Assembly (NCBI GenBank): GCA_965207845.1
Contig: CBDBNU010000003.1
Coordinates: forward strand, 1,385,862-1,449,861
DNA: 64,000 nucleotides
Source of the DNA: Dehalococcoidia bacterium
Lineage (GTDB): Bacteria; Chloroflexota; Dehalococcoidia; Lucifugimonadales; GCA-2712585
Direction of reading: 5' to 3'
The position numbers and the translations under genes are program-made. Shown piece by piece: positions 3,706-37,587 of the stretch (its first letter is position 1; every line of letters begins with the position of its first letter). Below the pieces are notes generated by a model that was not told where the DNA came from, searched no databases, and saw nothing but the letters and a program-made list of their open reading frames with translations.

Positions 3706-3707
3706 GC

Positions 3708-3956: not shown

Positions 3957-4010
3957 GGCTCGTCCTCCTAACTTGGTTCTGTTGCACTTATCTGGGTGAT
4001 CACCACCGGG

Positions 4011-4343: not shown

Positions 4344-4409
4344 TGACTTTCTCCTCCGTAATTGCTACCCGGCGAATTGCAATAGAGCCGCTAAGCTTGT
4401 TTGATTGAG

Positions 4410-9388: not shown

Positions 9389-9395
9389 GGCTTTG

Positions 9396-9614
9396 TCACT
9401 TTATTCGTTTGGTTGGATAACGCTCTCTGATGTGCTTATGGAAGTAAGAGCCTTTGGAGCCCGCTTGCATAAGGCTTATATTGACTGTTGTAGGCACGTT
9501 TGCGTATAGGTAAATTCTGCCTCCATGAAACTCAATCTCTAAGGTTTGTGTTAGTGGGTCATAGCCTACTGAGAGAATGTTACTTGACCTGATTCGTTCT
9601 CTATCCATCAGCAT
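9396..9614 (-). CDS. KTSC-domain protein (copy 1)
   Basis: 72-aa ORF. SSNILSVGYDPLTQTLEIEFHGGRIYLYANVP...SKGSYFHKHIRERYP follows the KTSC pattern. Its start overlaps the helicase stop by 14 nt. Confidence 0.8.
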   Translation of the reverse strand: MLMDRERIRSSNILSVGYDPLTQTLEIEFHGGRIYLYANVPTTVNISLMQAGSKGSYFHKHIRERYPTKRIK

Positions 9615-12600
9615 TCTCGATTCCGTACTCCGCCCGATCCTCCCGCACCTGCATCGGCTTGGTCATAGAGTCCACTTCCAGCCAGTAGTGCTGCAATTTG
9701 CTGACCTCGTGCCAGGGGAAACGGGCAGGATCCTCAATGGGCTCTTGCAACTGCGGCTCAGCGGCACAGTTCGTCACTACGTAGAGCCAGTAGCAGTCGC
9801 GGCGGTCCTCGGCCACGCGGCGCTCATTGGGAGTTAGTAGGATCGTGCCCGATTCGGCAGCTAAACCCTTGACTTCTATGAGGCGCAACTCGCCGGACAC
9901 GACGTCCAGGCTGGTTACGTCGTAGCCCAGATTCTTCTCATGCACGTCGCAGACCTGTTTGCCCTGAGCTGCTTCGTACTCCATCACGACTTGCATGGCG
10001 GTCATCTCGGTCTCGGCGTTAGGACGCAGGCGCTTCACCTCGGGTGCCTCACGCTCCGGGTGAGGCAAGATAAGTGCACCGGCGAGCCGTTCGACGCCTT
10101 GGAGTGTGAGCGCCCGCTGTTGCCTGAGTTCGCTTCTCCGCCGTTCACGCCGCGCCATGGCCTCGTCGTGGCGGGCTTCGGCCTGGGCGAGACGCCCTTC
10201 CGCGCCGACGACCCGATTCTCCAGGTCCTCGGAAGCTCGGCCAATCTCTTGGTCGATTCGCTGAAGCACCTCAGTCAACGACAGTTCAACGTGCTCGGCG
10301 ATCCGGTCCACTTCGTCCAGACGCTCGTCGCGTACTTCTTCGATGAAGGGTGCGAGGGCGTGCTCATGCAGCCATCCTGTGGCTTCAGGGAGTGCGGCGG
10401 CAGCAGGGAGATTGTGCGGAGGGGGTGCGGGAATAAGATTGCCGAGAATATCAGCCTCTCTCAAGCCTGGCTCCCCGGTCTCCGTCAGTTCCACGACGAA
10501 CAGCCGCTCGTGGATAACGTGGCCGAGGCCGTCAACGACTCTGGCACGGTAGACATCGAGACGGGCCGGTGCGTTGTGGTCGAGGGAGTAGAAACACGCA
10601 CCCATGGCGAAAGCATCCCTGCTGGTTTCGACGCAGTGACGGCGGAGCGCTTCAAAGAGGGGATGTCCGGGGGTTACCCATTCCAGGTTGTGTGCCTCTG
10701 CCGTGTCTCGGTCTGTCGAAAGGCGGGAGTAGCGTGTCAGGAGATCTGAGAAACGCCAGTCGGAATCGCGTTCGTATTTCCGCAAGGAGGTCGGTGTACG
10801 GCCCGGATGGAATGCATGTCGTAAGTTCGTAACTGGATTAAGTGCAAACGCTGCGATTTTGGAACTCTCTGACAGAAATCTAGCGATGGTCTCCGGCACC
10901 ACTCGACGCTCCTGGGCCCGGGCACGGCGCTCTACCAACATCTCCAAATTGAGCTTCTTGGCAGCCAGACCTTCCAGCGCAGTCTGGCAGATCTCACGGA
11001 AGCGTCCCTCGTCCACGTCTCGCAAAAGCCGGTTCTCCAAGTCTTCTGGTCCCAACTTACCGGAATAGTAGTCGCGGAAAATTCGGTCAACCTGAGCGGC
11101 TGGCAGAACCTCGCCAACCACATTGAAAACAGCGTCGTCGTCGAGGGCGTCGCGAATCTCCTGAAGCTTCGAAAGCAGGCGTTGGAGCACCCTTCCTTCG
11201 ATAGTGTTCGTGGCGACAAAATTGAAAATAAGGCAGTCTAGGCGTTGCCCATAGCGGTGGATTCGCCCCATCCGTTGTTCGAGTCGATTTGGGTTCCAGG
11301 GGATGTCGTAGTTGAAGAGAATATTGCAGCATTGAAGGTTTATTCCTTCACCGGCGGCTTCCGTCGCCACCAGCACTTGAATTTGGCCATCTCGAAACTG
11401 TTGTTCCGTGTAGAGGCGGGAACCAGGCTCATCCCGCGAGCCTGGCCTCATGCCGCCATGGATGGAGCCCACACGGAAGCCCCAGGATTTCAGCCTGCCT
11501 ACCAGGTAGTAGAGGGTATCCTTGAACTCCGTGAAGATTAGCAGGCGTTGGTCAGAATTGTCGAAAAACCCCTGCTCATGCATGATTTCGTTGAGGCGGG
11601 TGAGTTTGGCCTCCTTGTCCTCCGCCTCGACAGTTACGGCCTGCTGCGCAAGCTGTCGGAGTTCGTCAATCTCCTTCCGAACCTCATCAGCGTTCCCGGC
11701 CAATGTGACTGCTTCTAACATCCGTTCCAGCCGCTCTCGCTCCCTGTCTTCCAGTTCTTCCAATTCCTCCCAATCAGGGAGGTCTGGAGGCGCTTTCTCC
11801 GCCAAGTCTTGTGCTTGCTTAAGTCCGTCCTCCAGACGCTTGGATCGGTTCTCCAGCGACCGCTGCATTGCATGGGCGCTTGAGGCTAACCTCCGTTGGT
11901 ACAATGACATGAGGAAACCGACGGCGCGCGCCCGTGGGTCGTCACCCTGAGATGCAGCTCTGGCACTTTGCCGCTTCACGAATCGGGTTACGTCTCTATA
12001 CAGATCAAATTCTGGCCCGTCCATTGTGAAGCTAGCGGAGTTTGTGACTCGCTTCGTAAACACAGGCTTGGCTGTCCATGTGCCGTCTATGTGGCGATCG
12101 GGGAAATAAACCATGGCTTCCTTGGTGCGGCGGAGGTAGAAGGGCGCCCGCCTGCGCTTCATCGCCTCTCGTATAGACTTAACGTCGGCATATGCATCCT
12201 TGTCTAGAAGTTGTAGAAACAGAGTGAAGTTGTGCGGGTCTCCCTTGTGAGGCGTAGCGGTAAGAAGCAGAATGTTGTCGGCGTTATCCCGCAACATTTC
12301 ACCAAGTCGGTAACGCTGACTCTTATGTGTCTCGTCGCTTGCAGACATACGATGGGCTTCATCAACTATCACGAGGTCCCATTGTACTTGGCGAAGGCCG
12401 TGGAGAATGTCTTCCCTCTTGGCTAGGTCGAGGGAGGTGATGGTCTGCCTCTGTTCAAGCCACTGATTGATGCCGAACTGATTTCGAATGTCTCCGCCCT
12501 TCAGTACAAAGAACCGCTCGTCAAACTTTTCATTTAGTTCTCGCTGCCACTGGAAGGTTAGGTTTGCCGGGCACACTACAAGGACTCGTTCAGCCAAGCC

Positions 12601-13044
12601 TCTAAGCTTCAGTTCTTTGATAAGCAGTCCGGCCATGATTGTCTTTCCGGCTCCGGCGTCATCGGCCAGCAGGAACCGTACGCTAGGGAGCTTCAGCAGA
12701 TAGTCGTAGATGGCTTCAAGCTGATGTGGAAGAGGATCAACTCGCGAAATGGATAGACCGAAATACGGGTCAAACTCGTAGGCGATGCCGAGAGAGTGGG
12801 CTTGGAGGCCAAGTCTGAGTAGCCTCCCGTCCCCATCGTAAGAGAGGGTGCTGTCGGCAATGGTTAATTCCGCAATATCGGTCGAGGTTATAGTGACCTG
12901 ACGGAATAGTTGGGTCCGCTGTCCGACAAGGCCCGCCTCGACGGAGCCAGCTCCGTTCGAACGGACGGTCACCACCCGCATCGGCTCATTGAACAACGGG
13001 CCAGTAAGGACCTGACCTTCACGTATTCCAATTTCGGTCGTCAA
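9601..13044 (-). CDS. SNF2/DEAH helicase fused to C-terminal DUF3883 (PD-(D/E)xK-like) nuclease domain
   Basis: 1147-aa ORF. LADDAGAGKTIMAG (motif I), VIVDEAHRM (II), LLLTATPHKG (III), WNPNRLEQRMGRIHRYGQ (VI). C-terminal GYDVTSLD...LRLIEVKG...YWLYVV is typical of DUF3883. Confidence 0.9.
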   Translation of the reverse strand: MTTEIGIREGQVLTGPLFNEPMRVVTVRSNGAGSVEAGLVGQRTQLFRQVTITSTDIAELTIADSTLSYDGDGRLLRLGLQAHSLGIAYEFDPYFGLSISRVDPLPHQLEAIYDYLLKLPSVRFLLADDAGAGKTIMAGLLIKELKLRGLAERVLVVCPANLTFQWQRELNEKFDERFFVLKGGDIRNQFGINQWLEQRQTITSLDLAKREDILHGLRQVQWDLVIVDEAHRMSASDETHKSQRYRLGEMLRDNADNILLLTATPHKGDPHNFTLFLQLLDKDAYADVKSIREAMKRRRAPFYLRRTKEAMVYFPDRHIDGTWTAKPVFTKRVTNSASFTMDGPEFDLYRDVTRFVKRQSARAASQGDDPRARAVGFLMSLYQRRLASSAHAMQRSLENRSKRLEDGLKQAQDLAEKAPPDLPDWEELEELEDRERERLERMLEAVTLAGNADEVRKEIDELRQLAQQAVTVEAEDKEAKLTRLNEIMHEQGFFDNSDQRLLIFTEFKDTLYYLVGRLKSWGFRVGSIHGGMRPGSRDEPGSRLYTEQQFRDGQIQVLVATEAAGEGINLQCCNILFNYDIPWNPNRLEQRMGRIHRYGQRLDCLIFNFVATNTIEGRVLQRLLSKLQEIRDALDDDAVFNVVGEVLPAAQVDRIFRDYYSGKLGPEDLENRLLRDVDEGRFREICQTALEGLAAKKLNLEMLVERRARAQERRVVPETIARFLSESSKIAAFALNPVTNLRHAFHPGRTPTSLRKYERDSDWRFSDLLTRYSRLSTDRDTAEAHNLEWVTPGHPLFEALRRHCVETSRDAFAMGACFYSLDHNAPARLDVYRARVVDGLGHVIHERLFVVELTETGEPGLREADILGNLIPAPPPHNLPAAAALPEATGWLHEHALAPFIEEVRDERLDEVDRIAEHVELSLTEVLQRIDQEIGRASEDLENRVVGAEGRLAQAEARHDEAMARRERRRSELRQQRALTLQGVERLAGALILPHPEREAPEVKRLRPNAETEMTAMQVVMEYEAAQGKQVCDVHEKNLGYDVTSLDVVSGELRLIEVKGLAAESGTILLTPNERRVAEDRRDCYWLYVVTNCAAEPQLQEPIEDPARFPWHEVSKLQHYWLEVDSMTKPMQVREDRAEYGIENADG

Positions 13045-13750: not shown

Positions 13751-14236
13751 CTATCGTCGCCGCGAATGACGCCTCCGCTTCGAGGCTTGTGGCCGGTCGT
13801 AATCCATTTGCCCAGTTTCCATTTGCTTCTTCCATCTCCAAAGGAGTATGCCTACCCCTACGATGACAACAGCACCAATGACATTGCCTCCACGAAGAGC
13901 TTGCCACGCATCCCCACGCAGCCCAGGTATAACAAGAGAGCCGATGACCACAGCTACTGCTACGAGAATTAGCCGAAATGGATGGGTGAATATGTGGCCG
14001 CGAAGGATGGCAAGAGTAGCCGCCATGAGAAATGACAAACCGAAGAGAAAACCCTGCCCGAACGCCCACTGCCTCAACGCGTAAATGCTGATAGCGGTGA
14101 TTAGGAACGGCAGCCAGGGTTGCTCTCCTTTCAATCCTCGGCGCCATCTGTCGCGGGCATCCTTGATTTCCCTCGCCAAGAATCTGGATACGAAGCTGAG
14201 GGCAAATTGCTTTAGCCTGTCTGTCTTGCGCCTCAA
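13751..14236 (-). CDS. hypothetical integral membrane protein (about 4 predicted TM segments)
   Basis: 161-aa ORF with hydrophobic stretches PWLPFLITAISIYAL, GFLFGLSFLMAATLAIL, LILVAVAVVIGSLVIPG and VIGAVVIVGVGILLW. Its ATG overlaps the RHH stop by 4 nt. Confidence 0.55.
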   Translation of the reverse strand: MRRKTDRLKQFALSFVSRFLAREIKDARDRWRRGLKGEQPWLPFLITAISIYALRQWAFGQGFLFGLSFLMAATLAILRGHIFTHPFRLILVAVAVVIGSLVIPGLRGDAWQALRGGNVIGAVVIVGVGILLWRWKKQMETGQMDYDRPQASKRRRHSRRR

Positions 14237-14457
14237 CCGTCCGTTCCCTTGTTGGCTTCACCGTGATCGGTAGACTGGCGGGAGCGAATCCATTCCAGCC
14301 GCTCCCGTCTGCGCCACTCCCGCTCCTCCATGAACAGGCGGATGGCTTGCCTGAGCAACTCGCTCACGGAGAGGTCTTCTTCCTGCATCACATGCCGCAC
14401 CTGCGCCTCCATCTCGGGGGGCAGGGAGAATGTGATGGTCTTGGAAACCCTCGACAT
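14233..14457 (-). CDS. ribbon-helix-helix (CopG-like) protein
   Basis: 74-aa ORF. KTITFSLPPEMEAQVRHVMQEEDLSVSELLRQAIRLFMEEREW is a paralog of the RHH ORF at 57743-57958. Confidence 0.75.
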   Translation of the reverse strand: MSRVSKTITFSLPPEMEAQVRHVMQEEDLSVSELLRQAIRLFMEEREWRRRERLEWIRSRQSTDHGEANKGTDG

Positions 14458-14463
14458 GGGCAG

Positions 14464-15369
14464 CTACTCCGCGCTCTGCTCACTTGCTCGAATGATCTCG
14501 GCCTCGGATGAAGCGTAGACAAACCTCTCGGCGCTTTGGTAGACACACACATTGGCAAGATCCATTTCTCTTTCGCTCATCGCTACCATTCGCGGGGCCA
14601 GGCCGCTCTCCCCGCGGGCATCCCCACACATGCCCATCAGGTTCAACTCTGCCGAAAGCGGCATAATGAACCACATCCAGTTGCGATATTCGGGTTCAGG
14701 GCCAAGGAGTAAGGAATTCGAAGGGATATCCGATGTGATGAATTTTCGCCCATGGAGGGCTTCGTCGAATCGCCAACTACCTTCTTCGTACCATCGGTAT
14801 CGCAGTTCCCCTTCTTCTCCCCGCAGGAAGGGATCTATGCGAAGTGCCTCGAACTTTCGGTCGCTGTCAATGCCAGCCATCTCCCTAAACAGCGGGAACA
14901 CAACCTGCCACTGCTCGTCCAAATCGGGAAACCTTGCACGAAAGTCCACTTCTATGGCTTCGAGCTTATCCCGGAACTGTAGACGTATCTCCTTCACAGG
15001 CTCCCTCATTTGTTCGCGGAAGCCACGGCTTCGTAGCTTTGAGTCCACAACGAAACGCGCCAGCCACGCTCTCAAGGTGGCGGACTCCTCGCGGTCAGAA
15101 ATCAACTCGTTCAGTTCAGAAGCACTCTGCCCATTGAGAGTCTGGAGAATTTCCGCCCACTGATCTTCTCGTTGCTGGAGGATTGCATCATTCGCGACGG
15201 AATAGGCGTCTCTCGACACTTCTACGTTTTCGATGGAACGCACTGCGACCCCTGCTTGAGGATTGTTTTTGTCGAAGGCATATATCTGCTCGGGGCGGCT
15301 GTCCAGAGAAAAGCCGCGCAGATACAACCTCGGGACAAAGTGCTTTCTTGTCTTGTCTATCTCGAACAT
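14464..15369 (-). CDS. DUF4238-domain protein
   Basis: 301-aa ORF. N-terminal KHFVPRLYLRGFS is the DUF4238 hallmark (H-[FY]-V-P-x-F-Y-L-x-x-F). Confidence 0.8.
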   Translation of the reverse strand: MFEIDKTRKHFVPRLYLRGFSLDSRPEQIYAFDKNNPQAGVAVRSIENVEVSRDAYSVANDAILQQREDQWAEILQTLNGQSASELNELISDREESATLRAWLARFVVDSKLRSRGFREQMREPVKEIRLQFRDKLEAIEVDFRARFPDLDEQWQVVFPLFREMAGIDSDRKFEALRIDPFLRGEEGELRYRWYEEGSWRFDEALHGRKFITSDIPSNSLLLGPEPEYRNWMWFIMPLSAELNLMGMCGDARGESGLAPRMVAMSEREMDLANVCVYQSAERFVYASSEAEIIRASEQSAE

Positions 15370-16157
15370 CTCTCTTTTGCCTATGTGTGTAGTGCAATGT
15401 CTTACTCTTCACTCTTACGACACCTGCCTTCAAGCCCTACCAGGGGCCGACTGCTGCCACCGCCGGTATAGGCTTCCGCCTGCGCCCCGGCATGTCAGAT
15501 GCCATCATCTGTGGGCCGAGGATGGCGGCGTATTGAGGCACGACGACGACCCTCGCAAACCTCTCCATCATGATGACGGACCGGTCGAGGGCGGCGTAGC
15601 CGCCAAATTGGGCGTATCAAACCGGTGCGAAGCGAGCCGCCTGCTCCACCATCTGAGACAGAATCGAGAATCTGTCAATTGACGTTCATGCTGGAATTGT
15701 AGACTGAACTCTCCAGTAGTGTACGAGCGTGACAGTTTGCTCGTCTGTCTACGGATGAATGAAATCTTATTCATCGGCGTATTCCTGTCCCTCCGCATTT
15801 GATGGGAATGAGGCTTGAACCCCCGCATTCAATGTAGTTCATTCACCGTCACTCCTCTTCTGAATCGATACAGCACAATTCGGCCCTTCCCATCTGGAAT
15901 GTAGTTGCACTGGGTGCCCAACTTCACCCGACTAACTGAAGGGTTTGTTCTTCCTTGTGGGGTCTCCCGCCAGATAGGTTATGTCCATTCCTATAGTAAC
16001 CGATGGCTCTCCTCACCATGAGCAATCCAACTCATCTAAGGGAACTTTCCCCTCCCCTACTTGTCCTATTTTAACTGAAGTTCCACAACCCCATGGCTGT
16101 GTTTGCCGCATGGGACTCGATAAGGCTCTGAAGATCGTTCCACATTTCGCCGGACAA

Positions 16158-17837
16158 CTAGAGCAACTTAGCGGCATCTACCTCAGGAAGGTGGCATTTC
16201 TTGTACTTTAGGCCGCTCCCACAGGGACAAGGCCTATTCCTTCCAGTCCTATGCATGTCTCGTAGTGCTCGAAGATATTCCCTTTCCGCCCTTACGAAAT
16301 CGTGCGGGTATTCCTTCCATAAGTCATTGCGAGCGGCCTCGAGGCCGTGGTGTTCCACGTACGCTACTCTATAGAAGAACGGGACAACCAACTCCCCAAT
16401 GAACTTCGGGACATTGATCCTCTCGCCGGTTGCAATCTTGAAATCTAGACAACATCGATTCTCTGGCTTTTCTGGATAGCAGTGCATATCGGCGATGTTG
16501 GTTATTCCCTGTTTTTCCATGATGCCTTGAATGCGCCCACTCGTCTCAATGACCGGTGGCCAGGGGTCATATCTTGAGGGGATAAAGCTGAGTCGAAGCT
16601 CGATTTCAAACCTGTCGCGGATGATGAAGCCTTCTCGAACCGCTCCTGTTGCCGACGCCGATTTCAAGAGTCCATCGCTGGGGTCATATTGTACTGAGAA
16701 TTCCAGTGTCCCAAAGATTCGGTTGCTTTGGGCTTCGTAGATTAGGCCGGGCTGCTCCCGGTTCAGGCGGCCAATGTCGACGTCAGACATTGAGACGGTG
16801 ACACCCTTGACTTCGGCATTCTTTATGGCAGTTGCAGCATACGGACTTCGCGGCCTTACCGGAGCATAAGGCGGCAATACAGTCCGGCCTCCGCTGGGAC
16901 CGCCGGGTGGTTTGCCTAGAGATGCGTCCCCGTCGCCACCCTTAGAAGATCCTTTGCCAAAGTCGTCGCCGAATAGTCTTCGCCACAACTTGATCGCATC
17001 CTCACTCGATACTGCATCCTTAGCATCTCTTGCAGACTGGGCATGAGAGTGAATCCTGTTTCTGAAGTTGGCGTATTTGGTCTGATCCCAGTGCCTGTTG
17101 AAGGTTTCCGACGGAAGCACCGGATTCCGGATCTGAGGCATTATGGGATGTAGCTGAAGGAATTGGTCTATTCTACCGAGTACCGTCACCAATGTATCAG
17201 CGACAGTTCGCACCGCTTCAGTCCCCTCGTCCCACTCTTCTATCGTGTTTCCTGCAAGAGTGGTGAGTAGAATAGATTTGGCGGTGAAATTGTTCTTGTG
17301 GTCTCGAAGGTATTTCAGCAATCTGACCACTCGCTTGAGATTGCCATCCGTGATCCGGTTACGATGGTTGAATCAGTCTCGGTAGCCCGTTCCATCAGTC
17401 TCCTCGAGTTCATTGTCAATCCGATTGCAGACAAAGTGTTCGCCGTCGATGGTGATGCGGGGAACCACGTCAAGATGAAAGTCACCGGCGTAATCGACCG
17501 TAACGCATCGGGTCTTGAGACGAAGCTTGTCGGCGTAATTTTTGTTCTCGTTCAAGGTCCTGCGAATTGTGCTGACGTATTCTTTGGCTTCCCACTCGTC
17601 ATTCGGGTTCATTACGATCTGCATATCGGCGTCGTATTCGTCGTTCTCATCAACGGGCTTTATCAGCGTGCCAAGGGCATGTGAGCCCTGACGCTCCATC
17701 TTCTGGTACCCGGTTAGGTTGTCCCGTAGGTAGCTGTTCACCGCCGAAACACTGGTATTCAACCGGTCAAGCCGGGTTGGGTTTAGATTGACTTCATCCC
17801 GGAGAAAATCTTGGAAATCCCTGTTGTTCTTTGTCAT
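16158..17837 (-). pseudogene. SMODS/CD-NTase-like nucleotidyltransferase fused to an unassigned C-terminal domain ending in a SEC-C motif; interrupted by one in-frame TGA
   Basis: ORFs 17373-17837 and 16158-17330 are in the same frame (507 nt apart). They are separated by TGA at 17373-17375 in the context GYRD*FNHRN. NTase motifs are QGSHALGTLIKP and EYDADMQIV, followed by VVRLLKYLRD. The C-terminus is RPCPCGSGLKYKKCH. Confidence 0.75.
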
Positions 17838-17933
17838 TTGGATGTCACCTCTTCGTAACTTGATGGTATGTGTGATTCATGTTCGAGAAATCCCCGCCGG
17901 ACCATGATCCCATGGTTTCTGAAGTTTATCCTG

Positions 17934-18863
17934 TCAGTCGGCATGAACTCTCCTCAACCGCTTCATGATCTCGCGGCTGTTTTGTGTGAAGTCCCTGTCT
18001 GCCAGGGCTTTCATTGCTTCCATATGTCGCGTGTCATCCAGGCCCCAGTCTTCGATCTCGGTGTCCAGTCGGAAATACCTGTCTTCCAACAGCAACCCCG
18101 CCATATTGGTGGAGGCCTGCGATTGGAGGTTCATAAAGTATGAGACAAGCTTAAGGCCACCCCAACCCGTTGCGATTCCCCAACGTTCCTTCGGCTCGTA
18201 CAGGAGCCTGGGTTTCCCCGTTCCAATGGACAGGATGTGTACCCTCTCAAGCGGCTTTCTGAACTTCGACACCGCCTCTGTCACGGCGAGTACAGAGGGA
18301 TTGTTTGCCCACAATCCTCCGTCGGCGAGAAGATATTCGTCCACGCGCATCGGGTCGAAGAACAAGGGCGCTGCGCAGGACGCCAGAACGGCATCGCCCA
18401 GCAGAACGTTTCCATCCCTGACGTATTCTTCACCCAGGTCTTTCAAGTACTTCGACTTAAAGACGCGAACACCTCCTGTCGAAATGTCAGAGCTGGTGAT
18501 TATCAGCGGTGTGGATATTTCTCCCAACCGTCGCTTCGGCAGATATTCACGCACTATCCGTTCGAGGGACCCACGCGCGTATTTGCTCCTGAACAACCCC
18601 CGGTCAAGGCGTCTATCACCGAAGACATCCGACGCCTTTTCCTCGAACAAGCCCACCAGCCTGTGCATCCCGACCCCCGCCGCCGCCGCACCGGCTACTA
18701 TTGACCCGGTGCTAGTACCGACGATGAGATCGAAGCACCTTCCTATCGGTCTCGATAGTCTACGTTCGAGACGGTCAAGTATGTGCGCGGGATAGATTCC
18801 CCGAGCGCCTCCGCCATCAAGGGCAAGTATGTAGAAGTTTTTGTCGTTCTCCATTCCGTTCAC
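17934..18863 (-). CDS. patatin-like phospholipase (CapV-like effector)
   Basis: 309-aa ORF. LDGGGARG (oxyanion hole), GTSTGS (nucleophile elbow), ADGGLWANNP (catalytic Asp). Confidence 0.9.
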   Translation of the reverse strand: MNGMENDKNFYILALDGGGARGIYPAHILDRLERRLSRPIGRCFDLIVGTSTGSIVAGAAAAGVGMHRLVGLFEEKASDVFGDRRLDRGLFRSKYARGSLERIVREYLPKRRLGEISTPLIITSSDISTGGVRVFKSKYLKDLGEEYVRDGNVLLGDAVLASCAAPLFFDPMRVDEYLLADGGLWANNPSVLAVTEAVSKFRKPLERVHILSIGTGKPRLLYEPKERWGIATGWGGLKLVSYFMNLQSQASTNMAGLLLEDRYFRLDTEIEDWGLDDTRHMEAMKALADRDFTQNSREIMKRLRRVHAD

Positions 18864-18955
18864 ACCTCGTGCTGCCAGGATGCCTCAAGCGATAACCTTC
18901 GCAAAGTCGTGAGTGCGAATTCACCGTGCACACCCATGGACCGACCACATTGGTT

Positions 18956-19002
18956 TATGTAGTTTACATCTTGCTTATACTAACATAGTGTAGTAAACTA
19001 TG
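18956..19002. promoter_or_regulatory. candidate operators in the divergent patatin / XRE-ImmA intergenic region
   Basis: Inverted repeats ATGTA-GTT-TACAT (18957-18969) and CATAGT-N7-ACTATG (18984-19002). Both contain TAGTTTAC or its complement. They lie just upstream of the RBS GGAGG for the 19034 start. Confidence 0.3.
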
Positions 19003-19033
19003 TAAAGAATTGGGCGATGGAAAGGAGGTCACG

Positions 19034-20125
19034 ATGATTGGTAACAGGTTGAAGCTGGCCCGCTCTGCCGCCGGACTATCTCTTCGTGGATTGAGCGACC
19101 GCATCGATAACCGGGTGACGGCCCAGGCCATCGGCAAGTACGAGCGCAACGAATCCATGCCGAGATCCGGTGTGCTGATCGCGCTGTCGGACGCCCTGAG
19201 GGTATCCGTGAATTACCTTGTGGGGGACACCAATCTGAGCCTACTGTCCGTCGACTTCAGGACCAAGAAGGTCCGATCCAGGCGGGAAGAGCATCGCATC
19301 GGCGCTACGGTTCTGCAGATGCTGGAGCGTTATCTGACAATAGAGGAGATTCTTGGGCTGCCCAGCGTAAACTGGGACAGGCCAAGATCCGCTCCATATC
19401 CTGTGGTCAAGGACCTGCTGGAGGCCGATCGCGCCGCCGGTTTGCTTCGTAACGAATGGGAATTGGGACTCAACCCGATCCCCCACGTGGCAGAACTGAT
19501 GGAAGAAAGAGGTGTCAAGGTCCTCTTTCGCCACATGCCGGATGAGGTGGACGGTTTCACGGCCCATGTGCGCAGGGAAGATACGGAAGATGCTCCGGTA
19601 ATCGTTGTCAATGGTAATCACGGCGGAGAGCGGCAAAGGTTCACCATTGCGCATGAGCTTGGCCATCTCATGCTGGATATCTCGCCGGGCATCGACGAAG
19701 AAAAGGCGGCCCACCGCTTTGCGGGGGCATTGCTGATGCCGGAAGAGACGATGTGGACAGAAATCGGCAAGCATCGCACGGCACTGGGTTGGGTCGAGCT
19801 GTTCAATCTGAAGCTTATGCTCGGAGTCAGCGTCCAGGCAATCACCTATCGCTGTAAGGATCTGGGAATCATCAGCCAATCTCTCATGGGTGGGATGTTC
19901 GACCAATTCGAGGAACTCGGATGGCGCAGCCCGCCCTACAAAGAAGCGTATCCGGTGCCGGGAGAGAAGTCAGGTAGGTTTGAGCGCCTCTGCTATCGCG
20001 CCTTGGCCGAAGGCGCAATCTCGGAATCGAAGGCCTCCGAACTCCTGGAGGTCTCCGTCCACGACCTGAATGTGCTGATGGATAATCCGGTCGGCGCCAC
20101 GGATATCGTTTCAAAGGAGATGTAG
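19034..20125 (+). CDS. fused XRE-family HTH + ImmA/IrrE (COG2856) zinc metallopeptidase
   Basis: The ORF track starts at TTG 19010. ATG 19034 (MIGNRLKLAR) has GGAGG 6-10 nt upstream. HTH is LSLRGLSDRIDNRVTAQAIGKYERNESMP and the HExxH motif is FTIAHELGHLML. Confidence 0.85.
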   Translation: MIGNRLKLARSAAGLSLRGLSDRIDNRVTAQAIGKYERNESMPRSGVLIALSDALRVSVNYLVGDTNLSLLSVDFRTKKVRSRREEHRIGATVLQMLERYLTIEEILGLPSVNWDRPRSAPYPVVKDLLEADRAAGLLRNEWELGLNPIPHVAELMEERGVKVLFRHMPDEVDGFTAHVRREDTEDAPVIVVNGNHGGERQRFTIAHELGHLMLDISPGIDEEKAAHRFAGALLMPEETMWTEIGKHRTALGWVELFNLKLMLGVSVQAITYRCKDLGIISQSLMGGMFDQFEELGWRSPPYKEAYPVPGEKSGRFERLCYRALAEGAISESKASELLEVSVHDLNVLMDNPVGATDIVSKEM

Positions 20126-20128
20126 CCG

Positions 20129-20689
20129 GTGAATGTGATGGTCGCGGACACGTCGGTGCTAATCGACCTCGAGCGGGGGTTTCTGTTGGAACAGTCATTC
20201 GCCCTTCCGTTCAGTTCCAGGGTTCCAGATTTGTTGTACAGAAACGAACTAGAGGGCAGGCAAGCAGGACCCGCTTTCGGCGAACGCCTTCTCCGTTTAG
20301 GGTTAGAAATCGTTGAGCTAAGTGGCGACGAAGTCAGAAGAGCCGTACTGTTGGTTCAGCGAAAGCGTAGCCTGTCTCTGCCCGACTCTTTCGCCTTAAC
20401 CCTGGCGTCTAGCAGGAATTGGACGCTCCTCACGGGAGATGCAGTTTTGCGGACGTTGGCACAATGCCTAAAGGTGACAAGTCATGGAGTGTGGTGGGTA
20501 CTGGATTATGTTCACAGCTTAGGAATAGCTACGTCTGCGGAACTTATATCAGGACTCACAAGAATTCGCGATCATCCTAGTTGCAGACTGCCGAAAGCGG
20601 AGATCGACATGAGGCTCCTTCACTACTCAGCGAGTTACGAACAAGCATTGAGCATAATGAGCGGGACTACAATCGAGCGTCCCTGTTAA
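20129..20689 (+). CDS. PIN-domain protein
   Basis: 186-aa ORF starting 4 nt after the XRE-ImmA stop. Acidic PIN residues are in VADTSVLIDLERG and LLTGDAVL. Confidence 0.7.
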   Translation: MNVMVADTSVLIDLERGFLLEQSFALPFSSRVPDLLYRNELEGRQAGPAFGERLLRLGLEIVELSGDEVRRAVLLVQRKRSLSLPDSFALTLASSRNWTLLTGDAVLRTLAQCLKVTSHGVWWVLDYVHSLGIATSAELISGLTRIRDHPSCRLPKAEIDMRLLHYSASYEQALSIMSGTTIERPC

Positions 20690-20819: not shown

Positions 20820-21284
20820 TTAAACAAGACCTTTGCAGATGGCCTTGAACTCGAACCCATTGGCGCTGATGCGAGCGAAACGTCCTAACAGTTCCACTCG
20901 CAGTTGTGGGAACGATTGTAGGAATAAGGCCCCAAATAGGGCGTTTTTGTAGCTAATTCCGAATCCCCTCAGCGCCAAGCGCGGGAAGGACCGCCACCGT
21001 TGTTGAGCAGCCTCATGGTCGGAATCTCCCTGCAACTGCTGTCCCGTAAGGGCGACCAGCCTGGGTTTGAGCTGGTACGGCAGCCGAACGACCACGTCGA
21101 CTTCGCTGTCGCGGCGAAGGTTGGTGCCGTTCTTGTAGAAGCCATGGAGGAAGACATCGGGATTGAACTCCGACACCCCCTCGTATGCGGCGAGCGCGTC
21201 GCGGACGGACACATGGGCCTGCTTCGAGGCCTTCGCGGAGCGGTGATGGCTCCACTGCGATAGCGTTGATTCAGGTATGGGCAT
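20820..21284 (-). pseudogene. probable truncated/degenerate nucleotidyltransferase (N-terminal part only)
   Basis: MPIPESTLSQWSHHRSAKASKQ...DVFLHGFYKNGTNLRRDSEVDVVV resembles the N-terminus of CD-NTase-type enzymes (..tWs..ga....vyLQGSYkNdTNIr.dSDVDiVv). The GS is replaced by GF, and no C-terminal half follows. Confidence 0.45.
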
Positions 21285-22003: not shown

Positions 22004-23089
22004 CTATAGATTGCAAGCGGCTTCTTTGAGGTCCTGGGCAGGGATCCGGATAGCCGAGTAGACCTCTCGGGCAACATAGCGTTTGAGACAACGGATGACA
22101 TCACGTTTGCTCATTCCCTCAGCGGTTCTACGTTGCATGTAAGCCCGGTTCCTCGGGTCGAAGCGTAGCCTGACGATGACTATGCGATAGAGCGCTGCAT
22201 TAGCCTGGCGGTCGCCACCTCGGTTCAGTCGATGCCTGTTCGTCTTGCCGGAAGAAGCCGGTATCGGTTTTACACCGCACAGCGATGCGAAGGCAGCCTC
22301 GGAATGGAGGCGATCAGGGTTGCTGCCCGCGGTTTTCAGAAGGGTTGCAGCGGTGGTCGGTCCCACACCAAAGGCGTCTACCAGGGACGGTGCAACTGAC
22401 TGGGTGAGTCGTACGATTTCAGAGTCCAGATCTCGCACTTCGTCACTGAGTTGACGGTAGCGGCGGGCAAGTGAACGAAGTGCGTACTTGGCGGCCATCT
22501 TCGGATTGTCGAGGCTAGAGAGGCGGAAGTCTCTGCACTGCTTGGCGAGTATGCTGGTGGTAAGGCCATCGAGCATGTCGCGAAGCTCGGCAGGCGCTGT
22601 CACGACCAGCGCCTTCATCTGATTGGCGGCCTGGGTGCGAGTCTTGACGGCAGAGTCTCTTGCGCTCTTGAGCATGCGGATCATCTCGACTTCGCCCTCG
22701 CCGGTCTTCGGAGTGGCATCGGCTACGCCGGCAAGCACCGCGCGCGCTGCCATCTCAGCATCTGTGGGATCGCTCTTCCCTTTGCGATAGCGGACCGACC
22801 TATCCGGCCTGTTGACCTCAATGACCTTATAGCCCTGACTAGCCATGAAGCGAGCGACTCCGGCTCCGTACGAACCTGTGCCCTCGATCCCGAACGCGCG
22901 GACCTCTCCCAACCTGCATGACCATCGTTCGAGCTCCTCGTATCCGCAGGTGTTTGTAGCCACGCTCTTCTCGCCGAGTCGGACACCTCGATCTTCAATG
23001 GCTACCGCCACATGCTGATCTCTGTGTGTGTCTATCCCTATCACCACCCCAGCTGCGCGATGACTCTGGTAACTTGCGATTCCTTTCAT
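22004..23089 (-). CDS. IS110-family DEDD transposase/recombinase
   Basis: VVIGIDTHRDQHV, FGIEGTGSYGAG, and a C-terminal Transposase_20-like region (LCGVKPIPASSGKTNRHRLNRGGDRQANAALY). ATG 23089 (MKGIAS) has AGGAGG upstream. The ORF track begins at 23107. Confidence 0.9.
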   Translation of the reverse strand: MKGIASYQSHRAAGVVIGIDTHRDQHVAVAIEDRGVRLGEKSVATNTCGYEELERWSCRLGEVRAFGIEGTGSYGAGVARFMASQGYKVIEVNRPDRSVRYRKGKSDPTDAEMAARAVLAGVADATPKTGEGEVEMIRMLKSARDSAVKTRTQAANQMKALVVTAPAELRDMLDGLTTSILAKQCRDFRLSSLDNPKMAAKYALRSLARRYRQLSDEVRDLDSEIVRLTQSVAPSLVDAFGVGPTTAATLLKTAGSNPDRLHSEAAFASLCGVKPIPASSGKTNRHRLNRGGDRQANAALYRIVIVRLRFDPRNRAYMQRRTAEGMSKRDVIRCLKRYVAREVYSAIRIPAQDLKEAACNL

Positions 23090-23301
23090 CTCTGCCTCCT
23101 GCACCATCCCGTATGGGCCAGGTGAGCGGACATAACTGCGAAGAGGCTCTGAACCAGGCTCCTATCAGGTCACTGCTCGCCCAAGCCGTTGGCTATTTAT
23201 GGCCAAGTCGGGAACGGATCGACAGATCAATTCGGGGACACTTGCGTCAATTACCGAATGGGTCAGATCCGATCCCGGATGGCCCATCAAGTATCATCGC
23301 A
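23090..23301 (-). ncRNA. candidate IS110 bridge RNA (5' non-coding end of the element)
   Basis: 212-nt non-coding left end upstream of the recombinase. It contains 8-9-nt strings matching the flanking target (TTACCGAA at 23251-23258 and 23303-23310). It also matches the element ends (GCTCCTAT at 23158-23165 and 22000-22007; TAACTGCGA at 23133-23141 is the reverse complement of 23297-23305). Confidence 0.45.
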
Positions 23302-23367: not shown

Positions 23368-24866
23368 CTATAGACTCTGTTCTGCTGAAGCATACACCAA
23401 CTGTCTGGCTACGACCCGTCGCCACTGACGGACTCTGCGATGTAGGGTCCGCAGTTGACGTCTGCTATACCGGTCTGGGTAGCGGCGCATCAACCGTTCA
23501 AGAAGAGCCGAAGCCGTATTGTCCGGATGCTTCTGAAGCCATTTCAGGATTTCACACCACACTCCCTAGAATGGATCCCGACGAGAATGCCAGGTGCGTG
23601 GAGCACTGCGACCGTCTCCTTGAAGAGTGAGTAGGACTCACTTCTCCCTCTCGCCACAGCTCAGGCAGCCTGGAAAGGAAGTGTTCCGGACTTTCACTGC
23701 TTGGCGCACTCGCCGAATCATCGGCATCTAAAGCGGAAAGCCCCGATTGAGCCTCACGTATCGTATGCAGCAGAGATATCGGATCCAGTCTCGCCCGACT
23801 GCTCTCCAGTCCGCACTTTACCTTCTCGCTCACGTCATCTCTCTCCAGCAAGCGGTCGCACGGCGTGGCCGGTTTCCTGTACCGCTTCTTTACGCTGCCT
23901 CCATCCCTACTCCGCTCCAGCAGCTGGAACGGAGGCTGAAAGTGGTTCACATACAGACGTATCGCTCCGTAGAGGTGAGGTGAGTATCTGACCGGCCATG
24001 GGGCCCGAATATCGCTCGTGTCCCACAAAGCGGAGGATCACCGATCCGTTCTTCTGCTCAATCCAAGCCTGGTCGTTCTTGCGGAAAGCCCGTGAAAGCG
24101 TGAACTCGATACCCTTTTCGGCGCAGTACCCAAACAGGGTCTTGTTGATGAATACACTGTCGTTGTCCGAGTCTATTCCGCGGACTGAAACAGGGAAACC
24201 CCGGGCGATGGCTTCAAGCCCTTCTACCACCATGGACTGCTCGCGCGCCAACATCGGAATCGCCTCCGTCCATCCAGAGCACACGTCGGTCACCACCAGG
24301 GAGTTGATGAACGATCCAGTGACCGTACCGCCGCAGTGCACCACCAAGTCTATCTCAAGGTATCCGGGCTCGGTATCCTTCCAGTCCATGAAGGTGCGGA
24401 CTGGAATCTGGCTTCCCATCTTCCTCAACCTTCTACGCTTCCTGCGACTTCCGGCCTTCTCCCTCACAGGTCTCAGTAGACGGTCTATCGTGGCTGCGCT
24501 TGCCGTGAGAAGACGCTCGCGTACGTCAGGGGCGAGATCGAGATGTCCGTGCCTCTTCAGCGAGTCCACCATACTTGGCAGAGCCGCCTTGAGCCTCTTG
24601 CCGCATATCCTATCCGACGCCTCTCACACCACGATCAACGCTTGTCTTACGACCTCGTCATAGATGCGCTGGCCTTTGGGAACGGTCCGCTCTCTTATCT
24701 GATCACACTAACCGAGTAGCCTGACGGCGTGCTTCCTGTGACAGCCAGCAATAGCCACAAACTCATCGAGCATCCGGCTCTTGTCCTTCTTGGACGCCTC
24801 TCTGTACCGACTGCGAATAGCGCCAAGCACCTCTTTCCTCGTCACTGCGCTGATGTCTGCGACCAT
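23368..24866 (-). pseudogene. rve-family transposase, broken by frameshifts/stops into at least 4 ORF pieces
   Basis: Pieces at 24708-24893, 23907-24572, 23552-24028 and 23368-23562. The integrase core is EIDLVVHCGG...VTDVCSGWTEA...IDSDNDSVFIN...QAWIEQKNG. The probable start is ATG 24866 with a GGAGG RBS. Confidence 0.8.
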
Positions 24867-25693: not shown

Positions 25694-25921
25694 TTAACCT
25701 ACCCTTGAATACGGAAAGGCGTTCTTTATGTATTGACTGAGGAATTGTCCCTTCGATGACGTCTGCATGATCTGCTGATGAAGGAATTCTGGAACTCCAA
25801 AGTATTGGTATGTCCAGCCACTAAGGAACTCAACCTCAAGGGTCTGTGTTGAAGCGTCATAGCCAATTTCTCTGATGTTTGACGATGCCACATGATATCT
25901 GTCCATCTGGGTCCTCCTCAC
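25694..25921 (-). CDS. KTSC-domain protein (copy 2)
   Basis: 75-aa ORF. SSNIREIGYDASTQTLEVEFLSGWTYQYFGVP...SKGQFLSQYIKNAFP. Overlaps the herA stop by 4 nt. Confidence 0.8.
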   Translation of the reverse strand: MRRTQMDRYHVASSNIREIGYDASTQTLEVEFLSGWTYQYFGVPEFLHQQIMQTSSKGQFLSQYIKNAFPYSRVG

Positions 25922-35563: not shown

Positions 35564-35721
35564 GATGCCGGAGGCCTCACCACATACCCGTCTCGTGGAA
35601 GCTTCCGAGGCGGCATACGCCTCTACAGTTGAAGCCGCCCGGTTGAGGCGCGAATCCCTCCGAGACTCTATAATCAGCCACATTGGCTCTAGACAGGAAG
35701 CGTAACCAGGAGGAGACAACG

Positions 35722-37251: not shown

Positions 37252-37320
37252 CAATATCGGTGATTCTGGTCATCGCAATGCTACAATAATAGTCACGTGT
37301 GAGTGTAAAAGGAGAACGCT

Positions 37321-37571: not shown

Positions 37572-37587
37572 GGTCGCAGGCCAGGCT

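What the first reader, a model, noticed from the sequence alone, without database searches (positions are those of the whole stretch)
16158..18863. Patatin + SMODS-type nucleotidyltransferase (CBASS-like) whose NTase is fused to an unassigned SEC-C-terminated domain and carries an in-frame TGA
A patatin phospholipase (GGGxRG, GTSTG, DGG) is followed 96 nt later by an NTase with GS...DxD motifs and the RLLKY helix typical of SMODS/CD-NTases. This is the capV-cdn arrangement. There are two oddities. (1) The NTase continues through a G/P/S-rich linker into a domain of about 215 aa that I cannot assign, ending in the SEC-C metal-binding motif PCPCGSGLKYKKCH. I do not know this architecture from described CBASS types. 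(2) The reading frame is interrupted by a single TGA (17373-17375) in GYRD*FNHRN, a position where a Trp (TGG) would fit family patterns. The gene is therefore a very recent nonsense pseudogene, a sequencing error, or it needs readthrough.
Basis: partly seen in the sequence, partly recalled or inferred. Interest (0 to 1): 0.7.

Follow-up and report, generated by a model that had tools for sequence, protein, structure and literature searches.

The report
Broken CBASS operon with cyclase–E2 fusion
This is a bacterial anti-phage alarm system (CBASS: a patatin lipase plus a signal-making cyclase) in which the cyclase is fused to its own E2-like regulator, and in this genome a real, recent stop-codon mutation has switched the cyclase gene off.

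Summary
A patatin gene lies at 18863..17934 on the minus strand. 96 nt downstream is a 559-codon CD-NTase gene (17837..16158) with one in-frame TGA at 17373-17375, a G/P/S linker and a C-terminal SEC-C motif.

The "unassigned" 215-aa domain can be assigned. It is the E2-like accessory protein of E2-only ("type II short") CBASS. It matches seven PADLOC "E2" families. It occurs as a separate 213-aa gene behind sister cyclases. Its profile aligns to human UBE2D2 with the catalytic Cys and the HPN His in register. Foldseek, however, found no solved E2.

The fusion is a populated family: at least 88 intact 540-607-aa proteins, all genome hits in Chloroflexota, nearly always next to a patatin.

The TGA replaces a Trp codon that is W in 86 of 88 homologues and TGG in the 96%-identical relative. 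It is present in contigs of two sequencing runs. TGA is an ordinary stop here, and dN/dS is 0.15. This is a recent nonsense mutation, not a sequencing error or recoding. Relatives are broken in other ways (IS insertions, a frameshift).

The most interesting point is inferred: a conserved [Y/F]-A-G junction suggests the E2 domain cleaves the fusion itself, as shown for SmE2 on artificial cyclase fusions.

The parts
17934..18863 (-). capV-type patatin phospholipase effector, 309 aa, intact. Its own stop codon is TGA.
   Evidence: Pfam Patatin 1.5e-29. PADLOC Effector/phospholipase PDLC00758 1.8e-84. NCBIfam CBASS_lipase 230.6 bits, above the 200-bit cut-off.
16158..17837 (-). Fusion gene for CD-NTase + E2-like domain + SEC-C motif: 559 codons plus TAG, interrupted by one nonsense codon (pseudogene).
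   Evidence: Single-frame translation. At least 88 intact full-length homologues; P0001 is 96% identical.
16950..17837 (-). CD-NTase (SMODS) catalytic domain, residues 1-296.
   Evidence: SMODS 3e-26. PADLOC cyclase 1.4e-110. Foldseek of the full-length model of P0001 hits CdnD, CdnC, CdnB and CdnG at E = 3e-16 to 1e-13, TMt 0.6-0.79.
17373..17375 (-). In-frame TGA at codon 155, replacing the conserved Trp codon TGG (G>A in the third position of the coding strand).
   Evidence: W in 86 of 88 homologues. TGG in L001 and L003. T at 17373 in contigs of runs X1 and X2; C in the relative seen in X3/X4.
16869..16949 (-). G/P/S-rich disordered linker, residues 297-323.
   Evidence: pLDDT below 50 for residues 297-323 in the AF2 model.
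16833..16859 (-). Conserved cyclase C-terminal tail retained at the fusion junction: V-R-P-R-x-P-Y-A-A here, family consensus VRPR[RK][PQ][YF]A-G. Proposed E2 recognition and cleavage site.
   Evidence: A334 in 87 of 88 and G335 in 74 of 88 homologues. Unfused cyclases with a separate E2-SEC-C gene end ...PRKPYAR in 10 of 10 cases; those with Cap2 end ...FG or ...MG in 49 of 51. Mean pLDDT of this stretch is 87 in the domain model.
16254..16793 (-). E2-like (UBC-like) domain, residues 349-528, with invariant H452, C463-L464 and H512.
   Evidence: Seven PADLOC E2 families. hhalign against UBE2D2 scores 22.4, versus 12.1 +/- 2.1 for shuffles (0 of 150 reach it), with His and Cys in register. Invariant residues. 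No Foldseek match.
16449..16451 (-). Codon of Cys463, the predicted catalytic cysteine (motif ENRC-C-L-D).
   Evidence: C in 88 of 88 fusions and invariant in 90 diverse stand-alone relatives. Aligns to Cys85 of UBE2D2.
16185..16241 (-). SEC-C metal-binding knuckle: RNRPCPCGSGLKYKKCHLP.
   Evidence: Pfam SEC-C 1.7e-8. The profile hits the SecA and YchJ metal-binding peptides in the PDB. Also present in the stand-alone E2 genes.
18954..19006 (.). Inverted repeat TTTATGTAGTTTAC / GTAAACTATGTAAA in the divergent intergenic region, overlapping a minus-strand promoter-like site (TTTACA-18-TAGTAT). Probable operator of the HTH protein.
   Evidence: AGTTTAC is invariant in six loci that carry the HTH-M78 gene, including two Cap2-type operons.
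19010..20125 (+). Divergently transcribed HTH + M78 (ImmA/IrrE) peptidase. Probable CapH-CapP-like regulator of the operon, or alternatively a RosmerTA RmrA-like antitoxin.
   Evidence: Pfam HTH_3 + Peptidase_M78. PADLOC RmrA 1.1e-47, capP 1.1e-16, capH 8.5e-5. It occupies the position held by separate capH and capP genes in sister operons.
20129..20689 (+). PIN-like (DUF3368) gene that travels with the HTH-M78 gene.
   Evidence: Pfam PIN 5.7e-5. Orthologues are called DUF3368. The pair is conserved in L001, L003/4, L007, L084, L027 and L032.

Best explanation
The locus is an E2-only ("type II short") CBASS anti-phage operon in a Chloroflexota (Dehalococcoidia-type) defence island. It consists of a CapV-type patatin phospholipase effector and a CD-NTase whose E2-like regulator, including that regulator's normal C-terminal SEC-C metal knuckle, has been fused onto the end of the cyclase.

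How an intact copy should work:
- The cyclase makes a cyclic (di)nucleotide on infection, and this activates the patatin lipase to destroy the membrane. This step is inferred from family membership.
- The E2-like domain uses Cys463 to attack the conserved [Y/F]-A|G junction of its own cyclase tail. That cuts the fusion and leaves the cyclase C-terminus as a thioester or isopeptide conjugate, which tunes cyclase activity. This step is inferred by analogy with Serratia SmE2. SmE2 is a cysteine protease that removes whatever follows the tail glycine of SmCdnG, including fused MBP or GFP.
- The divergent HTH-M78 gene probably controls transcription through the palindrome in the shared promoter region (inferred).

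In this genome the system is dead. A G>A change turned the conserved Trp155 codon TGG into TGA. This splits the cyclase into a 154-aa N-lobe fragment and, at best, an N-terminally truncated product from the GTG at 17330. The mutation is recent, because there are no other lesions and the gene's history shows purifying selection.
For: Identity of the parts:
- Patatin and CD-NTase assignments and the CD-NTase fold.
- The C-terminal domain matches seven PADLOC E2 families of 216-241 aa.
- The same domain, with its SEC-C motif, is a separate 213-aa ORF. It overlaps the cyclase stop by ATGA in L011, L014-L020, L022 and L030.
- Cap2 (E1-E2) occupies that position in about 50 sister operons.
- A profile of 90 diverse relatives aligns to UBE2D2 over 121 columns. 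H452 falls on the HPN His and C463-L464 on Cys85-Leu86. Score 22.4, against a maximum of 18.3 in 150 shuffles.

Tail and accessory co-vary...FG or ...MG with Cap2 (49 of 51)...PYAR with the separate E2-SEC-C gene (10 of 10), and [YF]-A-G kept at the junction of the fusions.

Fusion arose at least twice: the P0085 C-terminal domain is 62.6% identical to the stand-alone L011 E2 but only 32.5% identical to the window-type domain.

Published mechanism of the E2-only system: the E2 processes the cyclase C-terminus, forms a thioester and then an isopeptide, and cleaves off MBP or GFP.

The nonsense mutation:
- W at this position in 86 of 88 homologues; TGG in L001 and L003.
- None of the 83 other loci has a stop there.
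- Contigs of two runs from the same sample are identical to the window across 16100-19000. A 95%-similar strain in another sample has C at 17373.
- TGA terminates 11 of 29 long ORFs, including the patatin gene. There is no tRNA gene in the window.
- dN/dS against L001 is 0.15, with no indels.

Relatives are independently disabled: IS in the patatin gene (L001), IS in the cyclase (L084), a frameshift (L085), and a cyclase without a patatin (L002/L009).
Against: - Foldseek of a confident model of the C-terminal domain (pLDDT 90.6, pTM 0.90) found no significant PDB match and no E2 among the top 50 hits.
- HMM searches against PDB sequences and Pfam recover only the SEC-C motif. Two of 90 relatives gave weak hits to Pfam E2-ntca (best E = 0.032).
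- hhalign against the Cap2 N-terminal E2 domain is not significant (E about 0.3).
- The E2 assignment therefore rests on the PADLOC labels, one profile-to-sequence comparison, motif register and gene position.
- Self-cleavage, the nucleotide product and lipase activation are all untested.
- Only assembled contigs were available, not raw reads. A minority TGG allele in the population cannot be excluded.
Confidence: 0.75

Rival explanations
1. The TGA is a sequencing or assembly error, and the gene is intact in the organism.
For: The gene is otherwise perfect, with all catalytic residues in place and dN/dS of 0.15. Depth is modest, about 7-9x.
Against: Logan contigs assembled independently from two runs of the sample carry the same base and are identical over 2.9 kb. 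The change is a substitution, not a homopolymer indel. Relatives show that disabling lesions are common in this family.
Confidence: 0.06
2. The TGA is decoded (programmed read-through, or UGA read as Trp), so a full-length protein is made.
For: The stop sits exactly on a Trp codon, and UGA is the stop that tRNA-Trp misreads most easily (general knowledge). A low level of a toxic abortive-infection enzyme could be tolerated or even useful.
Against: TGA ends 11 of 29 long ORFs in the window, including the patatin gene 96 nt upstream. None of 83 related loci has a stop at this codon, and the closest relatives use TGG. No suppressor tRNA gene is in the window. A recoding site would be expected to be conserved.
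Confidence: 0.04
3. The C-terminal domain is not an E2 enzyme. It is a distinct Cys/His/zinc domain, such as a sensor or a docking module that uses SEC-C to bind a ribosome or chaperone, which has merely been labelled 'E2' in CBASS catalogues.
For: No Foldseek match to any of the hundreds of solved E2s, to SmE2 or to Cap2. No Pfam or PDB sequence match except SEC-C. No cross-hits between this class and the PADLOC families that Cap2's E2 domain matches. SecA-type metal-binding domains bind SecB and ribosomes (abstract of bioRxiv 10.1101/613315).
Against: hhalign to UBE2D2 is clearly above shuffles, with His and Cys in register. The order of secondary-structure elements, helix then beta-meander then Cys loop then long helix, fits UBC. 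There is a PxxPPxV-like 'PWPPVIE' before the His. The cyclase tail co-varies with the accessory type, as in ubiquitin-like systems.
Confidence: 0.15
4. The HTH-M78 + DUF3368 pair is an independent RosmerTA-like toxin-antitoxin defence module that merely sits next to the CBASS operon, rather than being its regulator.
For: PADLOC RmrA 1.1e-47. NCBIfam 'spr1629 family repressor/antitoxin' (below cut-off). The partner is PIN-like, a typical toxin fold.
Against: The pair lies in the position of capH/capP of sister operons. It accompanies both fused and Cap2-type patatin CBASS (L027, L032). A conserved palindrome overlaps the predicted promoter of the patatin operon.
Confidence: 0.35

Closest known systems
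E2-CBASS / type II short CBASS of Serratia marcescens (SmCdnG + SmE2; Yan et al. 2024; Xiao et al. 2026, PMC12948482; PDB 8HSB, 8YJY)
   Same: A CD-NTase regulated by an E2-only accessory, with no E1 and no JAB. The cyclase has a dedicated C-terminal tail with an aromatic residue, then a small residue, then a leaving residue: Y405-G406-E407 in Serratia and Y-A-R or Y-A-G here. There is a conserved Cys, and a conserved His about 50 residues after it: C101/H152 in SmE2 and C463/H512 here. SmE2 removes anything fused after the tail glycine.
   Different: Here the E2-like part is about 215 aa rather than 162 aa. It carries a SEC-C metal knuckle and belongs to different PADLOC families, with no detectable sequence or Foldseek match to SmE2. 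It is genetically fused to the cyclase. The effector is a patatin lipase rather than 2TM-SAVED. There is no exonuclease gene. The small tail residue is Ala, not Gly.
Canonical type II CBASS (capV-cdn-cap2-cap3, with capH/capP), e.g. Enterobacter cloacae Cap2-CdnD (PDB 7TO3) and the sister operons L005/L012 found here
   Same: The patatin and cyclase cores are the same; the cyclase domain is up to 80% identical to L012. The gene order is the same. HTH and M78 regulators lie upstream. The cyclase tail is recognised by a ubiquitin-like transfer enzyme.
   Different: There is no E1 (ThiF) domain, and no JAB/Cap3 gene was seen next to the operon (not searched specifically). The tail is ...PYA rather than ...NEARRFG. 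The accessory is fused.
CD-NTase-E2 fusion proteins noted by Burroughs et al. 2015 (as cited in PMC12948482)
   Same: [quoted passage not shown]
   Different: I could not read that paper (it is not held). I therefore cannot say whether it covers the SEC-C-bearing class or the Chloroflexota family.
SecA C-terminal metal-binding domain / YchJ SEC-C motifs
   Same: The same CxCxSGxK[YF]KxC[HC] knuckle (Pfam SEC-C 1.7e-8; PDB 1OZB, 1SX0, 9L6B).
   Different: Here the knuckle is appended to an E2-like domain of a defence system. No SecB- or ribosome-related function has been shown.

Membership tests
[quoted passage not shown] | CD-NTase with the GS...DxD...D active site and the CD-NTase fold | tested here: met
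   SMODS 3e-26; PADLOC cyclase 1.4e-110; G51, S52, D69, D71 and D123 invariant; Foldseek to CdnD, CdnC, CdnB and CdnG at E = 3e-16.
[quoted passage not shown] | Adjacent effector gene of a known CBASS effector class | tested here: met
   Patatin scores above the NCBIfam CBASS_lipase cut-off (230.6 vs 200 bits). A patatin is adjacent in 79 of 83 related loci, and is retained in fused loci where its position and lineage differ (L006, L008).
[quoted passage not shown] | Intact, expressible cyclase gene (a functional system) | tested here: not met
   In-frame TGA at codon 155, confirmed in contigs of two runs.
[quoted passage not shown] | Cyclic nucleotide synthesis, effector activation and phage defence | not testable with these tools
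   Needs biochemistry and phage assays.
Canonical type II CBASS (Cap2/Cap3) | E1 (ThiF) domain fused to the E2 (Cap2), and a JAB peptidase (Cap3) | tested here: not met
   The Pfam scans of the fusion protein and seven neighbouring gene products returned no ThiF and no JAB family. Sister operons carry a 516-aa ThiF protein in this position.
E2-only (type II short) CBASS | Accessory protein belonging to the CBASS E2 families | tested here: met
   PADLOC E2 families PDLC00872 (1.9e-16), 871, 865, 859, 861 and 870, plus 833.
E2-only (type II short) CBASS | UBC/E2 fold with a catalytic Cys after an HPN-like His | tested here: inconclusive
   For: hhalign to UBE2D2 scores 22.4 against a maximum of 18.3 in 150 shuffles, with His and Cys in register, and the secondary-structure order fits. 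Against: no Foldseek hit, and hhalign to the Cap2 E2 domain is not significant.
E2-only (type II short) CBASS | Cyclase C-terminal tail with a conserved small residue that the E2 conjugates | tested here: met
   [YF]-A334 (87 of 88) followed by G335 (74 of 88) at the junction. ...PYAR in 10 of 10 cyclases with a separate E2-SEC-C gene. Conjugation itself was not tested.
SEC-C motif proteins | CxC...C[HC] metal-binding knuckle matching Pfam PF02810 | tested here: met
   34.6 bits against a cut-off of 20.4. C537, C539, C548 and H549 are conserved.
CapH/CapP transcriptional control of CBASS | HTH repressor and M78 protease encoded next to the operon, with an operator in its promoter | tested here: inconclusive
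   An HTH-M78 fusion is divergent from the operon, with a conserved palindrome over a promoter-like site. The protein scores better as RmrA (1e-47) than as capP (1e-16).

The most novel reading that the evidence does not exclude
The cyclase-E2 fusion is a natural self-cleaving zymogen. The E2-like domain cuts its own polypeptide at [Y/F]-A|G and ends up thioester- or isopeptide-linked to the freed cyclase C-terminus. Peptide-bond energy would thus replace E1 and ATP in a minimal one-protein 'ubiquitination' circuit. The invariant SEC-C knuckle would tether or gate this reaction, for example by docking to a ribosome or chaperone, or by providing the acceptor lysines K544 and K546. In addition, this roughly 215-aa class would be a UBC derivative so diverged that structure search no longer finds it.
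Probability: 0.3. Interest if true: 0.6.

Novelty: new variant of a known kind. Interest (0 to 1): 0.38.

Why it matters
For annotating this genome, the result is that the CBASS is a pseudogene and should not be counted as an active defence.

For the field, the useful result is the family, not this copy. There are hundreds of clusters of an E2-like CBASS regulator that carries a SEC-C knuckle. It has been catalogued but, as far as I could find, never studied. It has fused to its cyclase substrate at least twice, each time keeping the tail motif at the junction.

This is a natural version of the cGAS-MBP and cGAS-GFP constructs that were used to show the E2 of E2-only CBASS is a protease and ligase without an E1. 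The intact relatives (for example P0001 and P0002) are ready-made test objects for that mechanism.

The repeated, independent inactivation (nonsense mutation, two IS insertions, a frameshift, loss of the effector) also illustrates how quickly such abortive-infection systems are lost in these Chloroflexota.

Tried and rejected
1. Foldseek of the C-terminal domain model against the PDB gave nothing significant (best E = 0.09), so no fold-level confirmation.
2. HMM profiles of the domain (A3, A4, A7) against PDB sequences hit only SEC-C peptides.
3. Pfam at E up to 10 gave only SEC-C. Across 90 relatives, two gave weak hits to E2-ntca (best E = 0.032) and one to E2-Crich (0.18).
4. hhalign against 45 Chloroflexota Cap2 N-termini gave E about 0.3. 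The alignment looks sensible, but it is not evidence. My first hhalign run used a wrong flag and was discarded.
5. Code 4 or code 25 reassignment of TGA is rejected, because TGA ends 11 of 29 long ORFs.
6. A suppressor tRNA in the window: none found.
7. Plasmid origin: no blastn match in PLSDB.
8. Burroughs 2015 and Millman 2020 could not be read because they are not held. The statement that fusions were already reported is therefore second-hand.
9. A word-indexed search with the domain alone returned only 11 proteins. The exhaustive HMM search was needed to see the family.
10. Contacts in the AF2 models, such as the distance from A334 to C463, could not be measured because coordinates are not exposed.
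Full report
**Observation.**
On the minus strand, a 309-aa patatin ORF (18863..17934) is followed after 96 nt by a frame that runs from ATG 17837 to TAG 16158. That frame has 559 sense positions, broken only by TGA at 17373-17375 (codon 155, GYRD*FNHRN).
- The patatin has DGGGARG, GTSTG and DGG. It scores above the curated cut-off of NCBIfam 'CBASS cGAMP-activated phospholipase' (230.6 vs 200 bits).
- Residues 3-299 of the second protein are a CD-NTase: SMODS 3e-26 and PADLOC cyclase 1.4e-110. The catalytic residues G51, S52, D69, D71 and D123 are invariant. An AlphaFold2 model of the 96%-identical intact relative P0001 (pLDDT 86.4) hits CdnD, CdnC, CdnB and CdnG in the PDB at E = 3e-16 to 1e-13.
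- A disordered G/P/S linker (residues 297-323) leads into a well-predicted C-terminal domain (pLDDT 90.6, pTM 0.90) that ends in a SEC-C motif.

**What the C-terminal domain is.**
It is not unassignable.
- It matches seven PADLOC families labelled 'E2' (or 'E1-E2'), all 216-241 positions long. The best is PDLC00872 at 1.9e-16, and the match runs from the start of the domain through the SEC-C motif.
- In ten related loci from GTDB genomes, the same domain with its SEC-C motif is a separate gene of about 213 aa; I read out the ORF in seven of them. In L011 its ATG overlaps the cyclase stop codon (AGATGAAG).
- In about 50 other sister operons that position is occupied by a 516-aa Cap2 (E1-E2, ThiF).
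- The domain family is large. An exhaustive profile search found 541 clusters (50% identity) at E <= 1e-10. Most are stand-alone proteins of 200-260 aa, and about 19 of the top 150 are 476-607-aa proteins that carry the domain at their C-terminus; the two I looked up (P0136, P0153) have a CD-NTase N-terminal part.

**Evidence that it is E2-like.**
- Across 90 diverse members the invariant residues are H452, C463, H512 and the three Cys metal ligands of the knuckle. The fourth ligand position (H549) is His or Cys. L464 is nearly invariant.
- A profile of these 90 aligns to human UBE2D2 over 121 columns. Helix 1 and the beta-meander line up. 'PWPPVIE' falls on 'PFKPPKVAF', H452 on the HPN histidine, and C463-L464 on the catalytic Cys85-Leu86.
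- The score is 22.4, against 12.1 +/- 2.1 (maximum 18.3) for 150 shuffles. The UBE2D2 sequence was checked against the PDB.

**Evidence against.**
- Foldseek of the confident model found no E2, and nothing significant at all.
- Profile searches of PDB sequences and Pfam returned only SEC-C. Two of 90 members gave weak hits to Pfam E2-ntca.
- hhalign to the Cap2 N-terminal E2 domain is not significant.
- The Cap2 E2 domain and this domain hit non-overlapping sets of PADLOC families.

I therefore call it an E2-like accessory of a separate, SEC-C-bearing sequence class. It is catalogued as a CBASS E2, but its fold is only weakly confirmed here.

**The fusion is a family, and the operon is co-conserved.**
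- The full-length query found at least 88 intact proteins of 540-607 aa with SMODS + SEC-C.
- All 78 loci from the GTDB species set are Dehalococcoidia, SAR202 or other Chloroflexota MAGs.
- A patatin gene is adjacent in 79 of 83 loci. It is retained in fused loci where it sits downstream and belongs to another patatin lineage (L006, L008). One genome has an orphan fusion gene (L002 = L009).
- The fusion arose at least twice. The C-terminal domain of P0085 is 62.6% identical to the stand-alone L011 protein but only 32.5% identical to the window type.

**Tail-accessory coupling and the likely mechanism.**
The cyclase C-terminus co-varies with the accessory type.
- 49 of 51 cyclases followed by Cap2 end in ...NEA-x-x-[FM]-G.
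- 10 of 10 followed by a separate E2-SEC-C gene end in ...PRKPYAR.
- Cyclases with no accessory stop about 45 residues earlier.
- The fusions keep V-R-P-R-[RK]-[PQ]-[YF]-A-G exactly at the junction. A334 occurs in 87 of 88 and G335 in 74 of 88. The window has PYAA.
- In the domain-only model this tail is placed with pLDDT about 87.

In the one studied E2-only CBASS (Serratia), the cyclase tail Y405-G406-E407 inserts into the E2 pocket. The E2 is a cysteine protease that removes E407, or a fused MBP or GFP. It forms a G406-C101 thioester and then an isopeptide. A G406A mutant still works, and H152 is needed for isopeptide cleavage. The parallels here are Y-A-(R/G), C463, and H512 lying 49 residues after the Cys (51 in SmE2).

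I infer that the fused protein is cut by its own E2 domain at YA|G and becomes a covalent cyclase-E2 conjugate that sets cyclase activity. Shown here: motif conservation and co-variation. Inferred: cleavage, conjugation, the nucleotide product and lipase activation. The role of the SEC-C knuckle is unknown. In SecA this domain binds SecB and ribosomes.

**The TGA.**
- Position 155 is Trp in 86 of 88 homologues. The codon is TGG in L001 (96% aa identity) and L003 (79%). No other locus has a stop there.
- Contigs assembled independently from two runs of one sample match the window without a single difference over 16100-19000, at depths 6.7 and 9.4. A roughly 95%-similar strain in another sample has C at 17373, i.e. 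TGG.
- TGA ends 11 of 29 long ORFs in the window, including the patatin gene just upstream. There is no tRNA gene in the window.
- Against L001 the gene shows dS 0.127, dN 0.019 and dN/dS 0.15, with no indels.

The simplest reading is a real and recent G>A nonsense mutation. The 154-aa fragment carries the GS and DxD motifs but lacks the C-lobe. A restart at GTG 17330 would lack residues 1-169. Either way no cyclase is expected. Because only contigs were available, a minority intact allele cannot be excluded.

**Relatives are broken too.**
- In L001 the cyclase is intact, but the patatin gene is split at nt 149-152 by an insertion of about 806 bp carrying a DDE transposase.
- In L084 an IS sits in the cyclase at codon 177/178.
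- In L085 the cyclase has a frameshift near codon 131. That contig has 10x coverage, so an assembly error is possible.
This pattern fits frequent loss of a costly abortive-infection system.

**Surroundings.**
Divergent from the operon are an HTH + M78 peptidase gene (19010-20125) and a PIN-like DUF3368 gene (20129-20689).
- The pair accompanies fused operons (L001, L003/4, L007, L084) and two Cap2-type operons (L027, L032). Other sister operons have separate capH and capP genes in that place.
- The 146-nt intergenic region holds a 14-nt inverted repeat overlapping a promoter-like site that points towards the patatin gene. AGTTTAC is invariant in six loci.
- I regard the pair as a probable CapH/CapP-like regulator. 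A RosmerTA-like module (PADLOC RmrA 1e-47) is a live alternative.
- The whole window is a defence island: Hma, an OLD-like nuclease, DUF4238, SIR2-HerA, a 1907-aa PDC-S37/Hhe-like protein, a type I RM system, HEC-05 and IS elements.

**Comparison and novelty.**
- It works like, and is best filed under, E2-only (type II short) CBASS with a CapV effector.
- It is not canonical type II, because the Pfam scans of the fusion protein and its neighbours returned no E1 (ThiF) or JAB family.
- CD-NTase-E2 fusions are said to have been noted in 2015, and PADLOC holds the E2 families, so the kind is known.
- The variant features are the SEC-C-bearing, sequence-distinct E2 class, its fusion in cis with a retained YA|G tail, and its restriction to Chloroflexota in the genome set.
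- No paper in the searchable library links SMODS or CBASS with SEC-C.
- The pseudogene itself is ordinary.

**Verdict.**
This is a new variant of a known kind. Interest is moderate to low (0.38), and it comes mainly from the testable self-processing idea in intact relatives.

Noticed in passing
window 20820-21284 (-), beside IS110 at 22004-23107 (-) and an rve integrase fragment at 23907-24572 (-): N-terminal remnant of a second, unrelated CD-NTase. It matches PADLOC cyclase PDLC00788 positions 1-108 of 297 and NCBIfam DS2_2 nucleotidyltransferase at 8.8e-15. The GS motif is degraded ('HGFYKNGT'). It looks like a defence gene truncated near IS elements.
   Followed up: partly
window 547-13044 (-): An Hma system: HmaC 547-3327, HmaB (DUF1156 methylase) 4410-7409 and HmaA helicase 9601-13044. 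An OLD/GajA-like AAA_15 + TOPRIM gene (7406-9388) lies between HmaB and HmaA.
   Followed up: partly
window 14233-15369 (-): A small RHH (CopG-like) gene directly followed by a DUF4238 gene. From memory, DUF4238 is a single-gene anti-phage system. PADLOC gave no hit.
   Followed up: no
window 25918-28992 (-) and 29840-35563 (+): A SIR2 + HerA defence pair (PADLOC 3.6e-156 and 1e-158). Next to it is a 1907-aa protein matching PDC-S37 (1970 bits) and Hhe.
   Followed up: no
window 35683-44485 (+) and 51104-52861 (+): A type I restriction-modification system. The hsdM ORF looks 3'-truncated: the N6_Mtase profile is matched only over positions 4-195 of 311, and G+C jumps to 0.64 at 36-37 kb. hsdS and hsdR follow. 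A HEC-05 candidate defence gene lies further on.
   Followed up: no
L001:6166-7902; L084:2617-5170; L085:3637-5341: Relatives of this CBASS are disabled independently. L001 has an IS in the patatin gene, L084 has an IS in the cyclase at codon 177/178, and L085 has a frameshift near codon 131. The genome OY282441 has an orphan fusion gene with no patatin (L002/L009).
   Followed up: yes
L036, L040, L046-L048, L056 (GTDB Dehalococcoidia genomes): Several genomes carry two cyclase genes of this family a few kb apart. One is a short 294-aa form and one is Cap2-associated, suggesting tandem CBASS operons or duplicated cyclases.
   Followed up: no
window 18389-18418: Small extra contigs in runs X1 and X2 carry a 3-nt insertion (GAC after 18404) inside the patatin gene, at depth similar to the main contig. 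This may be a strain variant or a paralogous fragment.
   Followed up: no
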